Assembly: GCA_037441475.1 (NCBI GenBank) | Contig: JBBISB010000002.1 | Coordinates: 1 to 32,000 of the forward strand | DNA from: Candidatus Iainarchaeum sp. | GTDB taxonomy: Archaea > Iainarchaeota > Iainarchaeia > Iainarchaeales > CSSED10-239 | Direction: 5' to 3' | DNA length: 32,000 nt | Program-made: the position numbers and the translations under genes | Notes under the pieces: generated by a model | What the model was told of the DNA's origin: nothing | The model's database searches: none | What the model saw: the letters and a program-made list of their open reading frames with translations, nothing else | Part shown: one piece after another, positions 10,833 through 12,589 of the stretch | Layout of the letters: every line of letters begins with the position of its first letter | Numbering within the stretch: the stretch's first letter is position 1

Positions 10833-12122
10833 CTACTTACCCTCTCTTAAAAGATTATCAATAACCTTCTCTTGCCTTAAATAAAGATTTTTTAAATCAC
10901 TTTTATTTCTAAAATCAAAAGCCATCTTAAACTTTTCAAATATCTTTACAGAATCATTTACCTTAACTAACTTTTTCTTAGAAATATCATACTCAAATAA
11001 TTTATTTAATACAATTTTATAACCATCAAAAATAACTTCACAAATCTCAGTAATGTTTCTAAGATCAATTGTTTTTCCTTTAGAATATTTATTATACCTT
11101 CTTTGAATAATGATAAGATCAATTGCACCTAAGTCAGTTTCTAAAACCCCATATGACTTAAACCTTAACAAAGCCTCATTTGCTGTCTAAGAATGGAAAG
11201 TTGTATAAGTTCCTTTAGCCTGTCCACATAACATAGACTCAATTAAGTACTTAGATTCCTCTCTTGTCCTAACCTCTCCAATAACAGCCCTATCAGGCCT
11301 CATTCTTAGGGTATTAATAACAAGATTTTCTAAGGTTATTCCAAGATCTTGATTAACTAAAGTAAAAACCTTATGCTTGTAAGGAATATTAATCTCTCTT
11401 ACCTCCTCAACAACTACAATCCTTTCATCCAAGGGAACAAAGGAGATTAAAGTATTAAGAGTAGTTGTTTTACCAGAACCAGTATTTCCAGCAACAATAA
11501 TGTTTGAGTCTGTTAAGAAGCAAAGGCTTAAAAAAACTAAAGCCTCTTTTGTAATTGTCTTAAAATTAATTAAATCTTTTATGGTAAATGGCTTTTCTGA
11601 AAATTTTCTAATAGTTAAAGAAGCTGTTTCTGTTACTGGGCTTATTATAGCATTCATTCTTGAGTTGTCTTTAAGGTAGGTATCAAGGATAGGATTTTTA
11701 AGAGTGATATATTTATTAGAATGCCAAGAGAGCTTATTTATTAAATCTCTAATAATTAAAGAAGAAGTGTATAAAAGATTTGTTTCAAGCCAACCATAAT
11801 ACCTGTGATAAACATACAGTGGTTTATTTTCAGAAAGAATAACAATCTCCTCAAGGTTATAGTCCTCTAAAATATCTGTAAGTGGACCATAGTGATAGAG
11901 ATTTTTAAAAGAGATATCTAAAATGTAATTGAATTGATCCTCCTCAAGTTCAATGTTATTAATATAACAATAATCAATTAATTCTTTTTCAATATCCTCT
12001 TTAATCTGTAGTTCAGAAAGTTTACCTACATCTTCAACTTTATTTTTATATGAATCTAAAATAAAGTTAATAACCTCTATTTCCTGTAAAGCTAGGTCTT
12101 GATGAAAAACAATGTATTTTTT
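10833..12122 (-). pseudogene. FlaI/TadA/VirB11-type secretion ATPase with intact catalytic motifs but an in-frame TAG and no start codon of its own
   Basis: One frame is open from 12122 to 10833 (429 codons including the TAG). Motifs: GPLTDILEDYNLEEIV, TASLTIRKF, Walker A AGNTGSGKTT (GNTGSGKT at 11466-11489), Asp box VVEEVREI, Walker B RPDRAVIGEVR, His box TTFHS. TAG at 11187-11189 sits right after the His box. No ATG/GTG/TTG in the first 155 codons. Confidence 0.8.
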
Positions 12123-12589
12123 TTATTTTCCTTTGTTTCAATTATTTTAGGAGTTATTTCTCTTAAAAGATTCTCTTTAAAGTCTAAAACCCTATACCAA
12201 AGATACCTGTTTAAAATAATGTTTTTATCCTCTTCTAAAACATCATCAACAATTTCCAGTAAATCTTTATTATTCTTATAACAGAACATTGAAAATGAAG
12301 AAGAGGAACATAGATTAAATTTATAGGCCTTACCTTTCCTTAAAAGAATAGCACTATTAGGGCAGGCCTTTAAACAATCCCCACACCCATTACATTTACT
12401 TTGATCAATTGAAACAACGCCTTCAGACACATAAAAAATAGCATTCTGTTTACAAGAAGTTATACAAGGAGCATCTTTACAGTTGGTGCAGTTGAATACA
12501 CAAGAAGAGTCTTTCTTTGAAAAACTGTAAGGACAATTTAGGAAAACATCTGTATCTTTGGTAAAATCTTTTTTCTTTTTAAGATACAT
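12092..12589 (-). CDS. 4Fe-4S dicluster (ferredoxin-like) domain protein, possibly the true N-terminus of the downstream ATPase
   Basis: 165 aa. Cys motifs CTNCKDAPCITSC and CNGCGDCLKACP. The 3' end overlaps the ATPase frame by about 30 nt across an A8 tract. TAG stop. Confidence 0.7.
   Translation of the reverse strand: MYLKKKKDFTKDTDVFLNCPYSFSKKDSSCVFNCTNCKDAPCITSCKQNAIFYVSEGVVSIDQSKCNGCGDCLKACPNSAILLRKGKAYKFNLCSSSSFSMFCYKNNKDLLEIVDDVLEEDKNIILNRYLWYRVLDFKENLLREITPKIIETKENKKNTLFFIKT

What the first reader, a model, noticed from the sequence alone, without database searches (positions are those of the whole stretch)
12092..12130. A8 slippery tract joins a 4Fe-4S ORF to the start-less ATPase frame
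The ATPase frame has 155 open codons without any ATG, GTG or TTG. It opens directly after a TAA that lies inside the run GAAAAT-AAAAAAAA-TACATT on the minus strand (T8 on plus at 12117-12124). The upstream 4Fe-4S ORF reads GAA AAU AAA AAA AAU ACA ... and stops at TAG 12092-12094. A -1 slip on A_AAA_AAU, or one extra A from transcriptional slippage, sequencing or mutation, continues as UAC AUU GUU = YIVFHQDLALQEIE..., which is the ATPase frame. The ferredoxin ORF tail (IILNRYLWYRVLDFKE...) plus YIVFHQDL resembles the FlaI N-terminal pattern seen in the locus B paralogue (TIYDKYSIDDFTYVTIYYDQELGLFYNLVQPDL). The two ORFs therefore look like a single gene. It would encode a secretion ATPase of about 585 aa with an N-terminal 4Fe-4S dicluster domain, a fusion I do not know as described.
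Basis: inference. Interest (0 to 1): 0.75.

Follow-up and report, generated by a model that had tools for sequence, protein, structure and literature searches.

The report
Broken ferredoxin-pilus ATPase gene (recent pseudogene)
The two ORFs are the halves of one 585-codon gene for a pilus-type secretion ATPase with an iron-sulfur domain; this strain split it by losing one A from an A9 run and then damaged it further, so it is a recently dead gene and not a programmed frameshift.

Summary
T8 lies at 12117-12124, a TAA opens the ATPase frame, and 155 codons follow without a start codon.

The single-gene inference is confirmed:
- At least 84 database clusters and 24 species-level genomes of DPANN archaea, mostly Iainarchaeota, encode the ferredoxin-T2SSE ATPase as one uninterrupted protein of 560-626 aa.
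- A relative about 94.5% identical in DNA (L092/P0268) has an intact 585-aa gene. It reads GAA AAT AAA AAA AAA TAC (A9, ENKKKY), which is exactly the predicted repair.

Programmed slippage is not supported:
- The same gene also carries an in-frame TAG (11187-11189; CAG/CAA in relatives).
- It has window-specific changes at family-invariant residues (C91F, D92N, G131W, V435A; also H404Y).
- The two downstream membrane-platform genes each carry a 1-nt deletion near the 5' end.
- None of 48 A/T runs of 7 or more in other genes disrupts an ORF.
- The lesions appear, base for base, in a separate public assembly of run SRR11582163.
- dN/dS against the intact relative is 0.04-0.07, so inactivation is very recent.

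Verdict: a recently pseudogenised pilus-assembly operon. The fusion family is real, widespread and auto-annotated. I found no paper describing it.

The parts
12119..12589 (-). Codons 1-157 of the ancestral 585-codon Fd-ATPase gene. This is the Fe-S domain with 12 family-conserved Cys positions, plus the first beta strands of the ATPase N-terminal domain.
   Evidence: Pfam Fer4_6/Fer4_7/Fer4 above cut-off. Collinear with residues 1-157 of 584-587-aa homologues and of P0268.
12117..12124 (-). A8 run (T8 on the plus strand). This is the frameshift site, a 1-nt deletion from A9 (AAA AAA AAA = KKK).
   Evidence: L092 reads GAA AAT AAA AAA AAA TAC; the window reads GAAAAT AAAAAAAA TAC. Other relatives have AAT ATT AAA AAA TAT, GAT ACT AAA AAA TAT or AAT ATT AAG AAG TAT.
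12092..12118 (-). Out-of-frame tail of the ferredoxin ORF (..NTLFFIKT) with its stop TAG at 12094-12092. It has no counterpart in any homologue.
11190..12116 (-). Codons 159-467 of the gene. This covers the ATPase N-terminal domain and the core with Walker A (GNTGSGKTT) up to the His box (TFHS).
   Evidence: Pfam T2SSE 1.1e-32. 78-79% identical to homologues in one frame.
11187..11189 (-). In-frame nonsense codon TAG at codon 468. It is Gln (CAG or CAA) in all close relatives.
   Evidence: TAG also ends other ORFs in the window, and the window holds no suppressor tRNA.
10833..11186 (-). Codons 469-585 plus the natural stop TAG at 10835-10833. This is the C-terminal part of the ATPase.
   Evidence: Aligns to the ends of homologues.
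12314..12319 (-). Codons 91-92, TTT AAT (F N). Every homologue has TGT GAT (C D), so a conserved Cys is lost.
   Evidence: C91 is invariant in 73 fusion proteins. D92 is invariant in the 46-homologue set and in at least 90% of the 73. L092 has TGT GAT.
12197..12199 (-). Codon 131, TGG (W). Gly is invariant at this position in the family.
   Evidence: G131 is invariant in 73 sequences. L092 has GGG.
10017..10747 (-). Gene 2, homologue of a 248-aa membrane protein (weak T2SSF match). It starts at ATG 10747 and is frameshifted after codon 4 (ATG[G]TTTTTTTA; T7 on the minus strand = 10729-10735).
   Evidence: L092 reads ATG GAA GGA ATG GTT TTT TTA AAG; the window lacks the G. tblastn residues 5-248 fall in one frame with no start codon until TTG at 10661.
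9302..10002 (-). Gene 3, homologue of a 233-aa T2SSF platform protein. It starts at ATG 10002 and is frameshifted at the A7 run (9940-9946). An ATG at 9940 leaves a 212-aa N-terminally truncated ORF.
   Evidence: L092 reads CTT AAA ATA AAG AGA ATG GAG; the window reads CTTAAAAGAAAAAAATGGAG, i.e. 2 substitutions plus a 1-nt deletion. Pfam T2SSF.

Best explanation
Window 12589-10833 (minus strand) is the remnant of one 585-codon gene. The gene encoded a FlaI/GspE/CpaF-type hexameric secretion (type IV pilus-like) ATPase whose N-terminus carries a cysteine-rich Fe-S domain. That domain has a 2x[4Fe-4S] ferredoxin core plus four further conserved Cys. The gene heads a three-gene operon (ATPase plus two membrane-platform halves) that is conserved next to the PRPP-synthase gene in Iainarchaeota-like DPANN archaea. 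In this strain the operon has recently been inactivated by ordinary mutation. An A9 Lys-Lys-Lys run lost one A, which gives the A8 run and the apparent ORF split. A CAG became TAG. Several invariant residues were replaced. Each of the two platform genes lost one base near its 5' end. Shown: the single-gene ancestry, the exact lesions, their presence in a separate public assembly of run SRR11582163, and their absence from a 94.5%-identical relative. Inferred: that the lesions abolish function (pseudogene), and that the family's Fe-S domain binds clusters and gates or stabilises the motor.
For: Full-length fusions:
- The best 46 hits cover 94-100% of the repaired query at 52-79% identity, and 84 of the best 120 clusters carry Fer4 plus T2SSE.
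- Alignments cross the junction without a gap.
- Six syntenic loci have the gene intact beside PRPP synthase.
- 24 GTDB-species loci all read through the junction in one frame.

Intact near-identical orthologue P0268/L092:
- A9, CAG, TGT GAT and GGG at the window's damaged sites, with intact 248-aa and 233-aa downstream genes.

Lesions cluster in the operon:
- 3 of 7 A/T runs of 7 or more in the operon coincide with frameshifts, against 0 of 48 in the other 25 kb of coding sequence.
- My own calculation from these counts gives Fisher p of about 0.0013.

Changes on the window lineage:
- 12 window-derived changes, 6 at sites identical in all outgroups (C91F, D92N, G131W, H404Y, V435A, Q468*), against 7 and 3 for L092.
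- C91 and G131 are invariant in 73 proteins.

Reproducibility and recoding tests:
- The sequence is 100% identical over 10,493 bp to a Logan contig of SRR11582163.
- TAG ends other ORFs in the window.
- No stimulatory RNA structure is predicted.
Against: dN/dS between the window and L092 is low for the operon (0.074, 0.059, 0.039) and matches the flanking genes. There is therefore no long-term relaxation, and the pseudogene reading rests on the disabling lesions and a handful of radical substitutions. Gene 3 has no window-derived substitutions and keeps a usable ATG at 9940. The Logan contig may come from the same reads as the window, so a systematic read error cannot be formally excluded. The sequencing platform is unknown. 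No expression data are available.
Confidence: 0.8

Rival explanations
1. Programmed recoding. A -1 ribosomal frameshift on A_AAA_AAU, or transcriptional slippage adding one A on the A8 run, makes the full-length Fd-ATPase from two overlapping frames as a regulatory device.
For: The heptamer A_AAA_AAU lies in the zero frame, and a -1 shift gives a product of the same length as homologues. Poly(A) slippage rescue is known in AT-rich reduced genomes (own knowledge, not tested).
Against: No orthologue shares the frame change. The A run is not conserved. The closest relative encodes the same peptide in frame with A9. Downstream RNA folding is no better than shuffles (z -1.19, 22 of 200 shuffles fold at least as well). 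A TAG at codon 468 truncates any slipped product before the end of the ATPase core. Two neighbouring genes would each need their own rescue.
Confidence: 0.03
2. Sequencing or assembly artefact. The true genome has A9 and an intact operon, and the homopolymer length was miscalled.
For: Homopolymer indels are the classic error of several platforms. All three frameshifts are 1-nt deletions at or next to A/T runs.
Against: An independently built assembly of run SRR11582163 is identical at every base over 10.5 kb. The nonsense codon and the missense changes at invariant sites are substitutions, not homopolymer errors. None of 48 comparable runs in other genes is affected. The gene 2 lesion is loss of a G, and gene 3 shows two substitutions plus a deletion.
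Confidence: 0.07
3. Phase variation. The A9/A8 tract is a reversible ON/OFF switch for a surface-appendage operon, and this assembly caught the OFF state.
For: The intact relative carries the hypermutable A9 tract. The genes build a surface filament, which is a typical target of contingency loci (own knowledge). Low dN/dS shows the operon was functional until very recently. Another pilin-like/PKD gene in the window is also split.
Against: The other lesions cannot be reversed by slippage: CAG->TAG, loss of a G in gene 2, C91F and G131W. Tracts are not conserved among relatives. The first hit may well have been a tract slip, but the present state is decay.
Confidence: 0.08
4. Two genuine separate genes: a small ferredoxin, and an ATPase that starts at a non-canonical codon.
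For: Gene callers report a 165-aa ferredoxin ORF and a 156-aa T2SSE fragment.
Against: No related locus has this arrangement. The last 8 residues of the 165-aa ORF match nothing. Homology runs seamlessly from one frame into the other.
Confidence: 0.01

Closest known systems
Archaeal secretion ATPase GspE of Archaeoglobus fulgidus (PDB 2oap), FlaI/ArlI (4ii7, 4ihq) and Tad pilus ATPase CpaF/TadA (8rjf, 9e24)
   Same: Family profile positions 148-578 match 2oap at 1e-84, CpaF at 2e-68 and FlaI at 5e-66. The AlphaFold model of orthologue P0001 (pLDDT 90.7) matches 2oap, 4ii7 and 8rjf with Foldseek E of 1e-30 to 1e-35. The Walker A motif GNTGSGKTT and the His box are conserved. The gene is followed by T2SSF-type platform genes.
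   Different: It has about 130 extra N-terminal residues forming a Cys-rich Fe-S domain that none of these structures has. It scores 170 bits against a 550-bit cut-off for the NCBIfam FlaI equivalog. No FlaH or archaellin genes are adjacent.
HybA/NrfC/FdnH/DmsB-type multi-cluster Fe-S electron-transfer subunits (Pfam Fer4_11)
   Same: Residues 15-126 of the family profile match these subunits at E 1e-11 to 1e-18. P0001 gives weak NCBIfam hits to DsrO, DmsB, NrfC and FDH-beta. The motifs are C-x2-C-x4-C-x3-C and C-x2-C-x2-C-x3-C-P, plus C19, C91, C94 and C103.
   Different: Here the domain is fused to a motor ATPase, not partnered with a redox enzyme. No oxidoreductase gene lies in the operon. 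Cluster binding is untested.
ABCE1/Rli1 (N-terminal diferredoxin domain fused to an ATPase)
   Same: By analogy only (own knowledge): an Fe-S ferredoxin-like domain at the N-terminus of a mechanochemical ATPase, where the clusters are structural or regulatory and not part of a redox pathway.
   Different: The ATPase fold is unrelated (ABC versus RecA-like secretion ATPase). No homology was tested or claimed.
Homopolymer-indel pseudogenes in AT-rich reduced genomes, e.g. poly(A)-tract frameshifts in insect endosymbionts (own knowledge)
   Same: A 1-nt deletion in an A9 Lys-codon run in a 27% G+C genome, accompanied by other disabling lesions.
   Different: Nothing here indicates rescue by polymerase slippage. 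The additional TAG would defeat it.
dnaX-type programmed -1 frameshift (A_AAA_AAG heptamer plus downstream hairpin)
   Same: A matching heptamer pattern, A_AAA_AAU, is present.
   Different: There is no conserved site, no stimulatory structure and no intact downstream frame.

Membership tests
T2SS-E / FlaI / CpaF superfamily secretion ATPase | Pfam T2SSE (PF00437) domain above the gathering score | tested here: met
   113.6 bits against a 24.9 cut-off for the start-less frame.
T2SS-E / FlaI / CpaF superfamily secretion ATPase | Walker A P-loop and conserved His-box histidine | tested here: met
   GNTGSGKTT is present. T370, S372, K374 and T375 are invariant and the other loop residues at least 90% conserved in 73 sequences; H466 (TFHS) is invariant.
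T2SS-E / FlaI / CpaF superfamily secretion ATPase | Two-domain (NTD+CTD) fold similar to solved members | tested here: met
   Model of orthologue P0001 against 2oap (E 2e-35, TM 0.65-0.75) and FlaI 4ii7. The window protein itself was not modelled.
T2SS-E / FlaI / CpaF superfamily secretion ATPase | An intact ORF able to give an active enzyme | tested here: not met
   Frameshift at codon 158 and TAG at codon 468.
FlaI/ArlI archaellum motor (NCBIfam NF058587 equivalog) | Score above the curated equivalog cut-off | tested here: not met
   169.7 bits against a cut-off of 550 for P0001.
FlaI/ArlI archaellum motor (NCBIfam NF058587 equivalog) | Archaellum gene context (FlaH, FlaJ, archaellins) | tested here: not met
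   Neighbours are two T2SSF-like halves, a VTT-domain protein and PRPP synthase. No FlaH or archaellin is present.
2x[4Fe-4S] dicluster ferredoxin domain | Pfam Fer4-family hit above cut-off and two four-Cys motifs | tested here: met
   Fer4_6 33.7 (cut-off 25) and Fer4_7 33.6 (cut-off 27). C34/37/42/46 and C66/69/72/76 are present in the window and conserved.
2x[4Fe-4S] dicluster ferredoxin domain | Actual Fe-S cluster binding | not testable with these tools
   Needs purified protein (UV-vis, EPR, iron and sulfide analysis).
Fd-T2SSE fusion family of DPANN archaea (as defined here by alignment A2) | All 12 conserved Cys positions (C19, 34, 37, 42, 46, 66, 69, 72, 76, 91, 94, 103) | tested here: not met
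   The window has F at C91, which is invariant in 73 members.
Programmed -1 ribosomal frameshift site | Slippery heptamer X_XXY_YYZ in the zero frame | tested here: met
   A_AAA_AAU at 12122-12116 on the minus strand.
Programmed -1 ribosomal frameshift site | Downstream stimulatory RNA structure | tested here: not met
   MFE -12 kcal/mol, z -1.19, 22 of 200 shuffles fold at least as well. Pseudoknots were not assessed.
Programmed -1 ribosomal frameshift site | Conservation of the two-frame arrangement in orthologues | tested here: not met
   None of about 30 orthologous loci has it.
Pseudogene (recent) | Multiple independent disabling lesions, with an intact orthologue in a close relative | tested here: met
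   Three 1-nt deletions and one nonsense codon in the operon. L092 is intact at 94.5% nucleotide identity.
Pseudogene (recent) | Relaxed selection (raised dN/dS) | tested here: inconclusive
   Pairwise dN/dS is 0.04-0.07, the same as the flanking genes. However, the window lineage has 6 changes at sites identical in all outgroups, including 4 at columns invariant in all 46 homologues compared. This fits very recent inactivation.

The most novel reading that the evidence does not exclude
The intact family (Fe-S domain plus FlaI/GspE-like motor plus split platform) may be a pilus or secretion machine specific to Iainarchaeota-like DPANN archaea. Its assembly ATPase would be gated by the redox, oxygen or iron state sensed through up to three N-terminal [4Fe-4S] clusters. 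The strain-level knock-out seen here, with an A9 tract as the first hit, would then reflect ongoing loss or on/off switching of a host-contact appendage in natural populations.
Probability: 0.2. Interest if true: 0.6.

Novelty: new variant of a known kind. Interest (0 to 1): 0.35.

Why it matters
For genome annotation, this locus should be recorded as one disrupted gene within a disrupted operon. It should not be annotated as a small ferredoxin plus ATPase fragments, and it is not a recoding site. For biology, the case points to a widespread, conserved and so far uncharacterised architecture in DPANN archaea: a type IV pilus-like assembly ATPase with a 12-cysteine Fe-S domain. If the clusters are real, this would be a secretion or pilus motor wired to redox or iron status. 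The pair formed by the window strain and L092 gives a natural knock-out and wild type at about 94.5% nucleotide identity. It shows that such appendage operons are gained or lost at strain level while a second pilus locus (23.7-29.5 kb) stays intact.

Tried and rejected
- TAG as a sense codon (it replaces Gln): rejected. TAG ends other ORFs in the window, including this gene's natural end, which aligns with homologue C-termini. No suppressor tRNA lies in the window.
- Exact-pattern scans for the junction with a run of 6-11 nt: no hits in genome contigs or metagenome contigs.
- Exact-protein look-ups for the 165-aa ORF, PRPP synthase and the VTT protein: reported 'not on record'. The 165-aa ORF is nevertheless in the collection, so those negatives say nothing.
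- Whole-library search with the ferredoxin ORF: mostly generic ferredoxins, so it gave little on family size.
- Second homologue search with a junction-spanning 210-aa query: only 2 hits. One of them (P0267) led, through its 90% cluster, to the decisive intact orthologue P0268.
- Six-way singleton counts: no acceleration on the window branch. That test was too coarse and was superseded by polarised comparison with L092.
- Literature: four searches plus the 2016 archaeal type IV pilus census (PMC4858521) mention no ferredoxin-ATPase fusion. This is absence of evidence within the held library only.
- Inverted repeats at the ends of the inverted HAD-methyltransferase block: only AT-rich matches at chance level.
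- L010 (76% relative): the gene stops matching at residue 458 and unrelated DNA follows. This was not pursued.

Full report
**Observation**

The coordinates and features are as described.
- The plus strand has T8 at 12117-12124.
- On the coding minus strand, the ATPase frame opens after TAA (12125-12123) and has no ATG, GTG or TTG for 155 codons, up to ATG at 11657.
- The upstream ORF (12589->12092, 165 aa, stop TAG) gives Fer4-family hits above cut-off.
- The start-less frame gives T2SSE at 113.6 bits.
- The two ORFs downstream (10661->10017 and 9940->9302) are weak T2SSF-type platform proteins.
- The window is 22-33% G+C and holds 23 A/T runs of 8 or more. The run is therefore only notable for where it sits.

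**One gene, not two**

A 585-aa query made by adding one A at the run found more than 3,000 relatives.
- The best 46 cover 94-100% of the query, are 563-626 aa long, and are 52-79% identical.
- 84 of the best 120 clusters carry both Fer4-type and T2SSE Pfam domains.
- Named sources are Iainarchaeota/Diapherotrites, with a few Micrarchaeota. Some JGI names read 'Flp pilus assembly CpaF family ATPase/ferredoxin'.
- Alignments run across the junction without a gap..IIETKDNIKKYLLFHQ.. against the window's ..IIETKENKK(K)YIVFHQ...
- Six loci fetched for the closest homologues are syntenic. Each has a divergent PRPP-synthase gene followed by the Fd-ATPase (584-587 aa, intact). Where the contig extends far enough, a 248-aa membrane protein, a 233-236-aa T2SSF protein and a VTT protein follow.
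- A scan of GTDB species representatives gave 24 further fusion loci. All read through the junction in one frame.

**The decisive comparison**

The 90%-identity cluster of the window's 165-aa ORF contains a 585-aa member, P0268. Its contig (L092, Logan assembly of SRR14932604) is about 94.5% identical to the window in DNA. It carries intact 585-, 248- and 233-aa genes. The sites compare as follows:

| Site | L092 (intact) | Window |
|---|---|---|
| Junction | GAA AAT AAA AAA AAA TAC (A9, ENKKKY) | A8, one A missing |
| Codon 468 | CAG (Gln) | TAG |
| Codons 91-92 | TGT GAT (C D) | TTT AAT (F N) |
| Codon 131 | GGG (G) | TGG (W) |
| Gene 2 start | ATG GAA GGA ATG GTT TTT TTA | lacks the G |
| Gene 3 | CTT AAA ATA AAG AGA ATG GAG | CTTAAAAGAAAAAAATGGAG (two substitutions and one deletion) |

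**Why this is decay and not recoding**

- The ATPase frame also contains an in-frame TAG at 11189-11187, which the finding did not mention. Close relatives have CAA or CAG there. TAG ends other ORFs in the window, including this gene's own end. No suppressor tRNA is present in the window.
- Both downstream genes are frameshifted near their 5' ends.
- The lesions cluster. Three of 7 A/T runs of 7 or more in the operon coincide with frameshifts, against 0 of 48 in the other 25 kb of coding sequence. All syntenic genes outside the operon align full-length in one frame. From these counts I calculate Fisher p of about 0.0013.
- Changes were polarised with outgroups. The window lineage has 12 changes in this gene, 6 of them at sites identical in all outgroups (C91F, D92N, G131W, H404Y, V435A, Q468*). 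The L092 lineage has 7 and 3. C91 and G131 are invariant in 73 family members down to 35% identity.
- The A run is not conserved in relatives.
- The 87 nt downstream fold no better than shuffles (z -1.19).

**Error or real mutation**

The window is identical, with 0 mismatches and 0 gaps over 10,493 bp, to a contig of the Logan assembly of SRR11582163. A second contig of that run matches window 23696-16746. An NCBI contig of 98 kb carries the same fragments. An assembler artefact is thus excluded. Substitutions at invariant codons are not homopolymer errors. A systematic read error cannot be formally excluded without the reads.

**Timing**

dN/dS between the window and L092 is 0.074, 0.059 and 0.039 for the three operon genes. 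Flanking genes give 0.037-0.17, at dS of about 0.1-0.28. The operon was under normal purifying selection for nearly all of that divergence, so inactivation is very recent. A tract slip (A9->A8) as the first hit, possibly as phase-variation-like noise, followed by further decay is plausible but inferred.

**What the intact protein is**

- Profile and fold comparisons place residues from about 148 to the end with A. fulgidus GspE (2oap), CpaF and FlaI.
- The protein is not a FlaI equivalog: it scores 170 bits against a 550-bit cut-off.
- Residues from about 15 to 126 resemble HybA/NrfC/FdnH-type Fe-S subunits.
- Twelve Cys positions are conserved. Eight form two ferredoxin motifs. C19, C91, C94 and C103 could ligate a third cluster, which is an inference.
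- The junction lies in the small beta-sheet that begins the ATPase N-terminal domain (strands 132-159 in the model).
- The most likely role is a pilus or secretion assembly motor whose N-terminal Fe-S module is structural or senses redox, oxygen or iron. This is inferred by analogy and is untested.

**Literature**

Four full-text searches and the 2016 census of archaeal type IV pili (PMC4858521) gave no description of the fusion.

**Verdict**

The slippery-site reading is rejected in favour of a recently pseudogenised operon. The family is a moderately interesting, uncharacterised variant of a known motor. The frameshift itself is ordinary.

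Noticed in passing
window 23707-29487 (minus strand): A second, apparently intact type IV pilus-like locus. It holds a prepilin peptidase A24 (28756..29487), a 990-aa FlaI-like ATPase (25716..28688) and two T2SSF proteins (24866..25708, 23707..24852). The 990-aa ATPase gets no Pfam hit at E<=1e-3 but matches NCBIfam FlaI at 1e-35 over residues 551-856. 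Its roughly 550-residue N-terminal extension is unassigned.
   Followed up: partly
window 19698-22518 (minus strand); L001 307-2742; L006 579-3029: A pilin-like 178-aa ORF (21982..22518; N-terminus KKSISAIISVVLLILVT) and a 766-aa PKD-repeat ORF (19698..21998) form one 811-aa gene in L001. In the window they are separated by TGA plus a frame change, not at a homopolymer. In L006 an in-frame TAA sits at the same place. This is either a second broken surface gene or a recurrent split.
   Followed up: partly
window 22657-23184 and 21982-22518: Tandem paralogues (175 and 178 aa, about 60-67% identical to the same L006 protein) with pilin-like hydrophobic N-termini and no Pfam match.
   Followed up: no
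window 14169-15706: The HAD-hydrolase and methyltransferase block is inverted relative to L092, L001, L002, L003 and L006. The inversion is also present in the Logan contig L091. Only weak AT-rich inverted repeats flank it (14194-14227 and 15688-15717).
   Followed up: partly
window 6845-8263 (minus strand): A 472-aa protein with no Pfam domain differs from its L092 orthologue at 40% of residues (dN/dS 0.50), while neighbours differ by 1-5%. Part of the region has no detectable nucleotide similarity. This looks like a hypervariable, possibly surface-exposed protein next to the pilus operon.
   Followed up: no
L010 (JAQVRT010000046.1) 2703-4076: In another relative (76-79% identical) the Fd-ATPase matches only to residue 458 (..MLCGQA) and then runs into unrelated DNA. 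This could be a truncation, an insertion or a chimeric contig.
   Followed up: partly
window 15713-16153 and 16277-16738 (minus strand): Tandem paralogous small proteins (146 and 153 aa, about 40% identical to each other's homologues; weak DUF5684 in L006) lie between the NDK gene and the inverted block.
   Followed up: no
window 4316-4591 and 3220-5522: This region has short ORFs and long gaps and is not syntenic with the relatives, except for 5085..5522. The ORF 4316..4591 ends in TGA followed by a long open stretch in the same frame. Possible further gene remnants were not examined.
   Followed up: no
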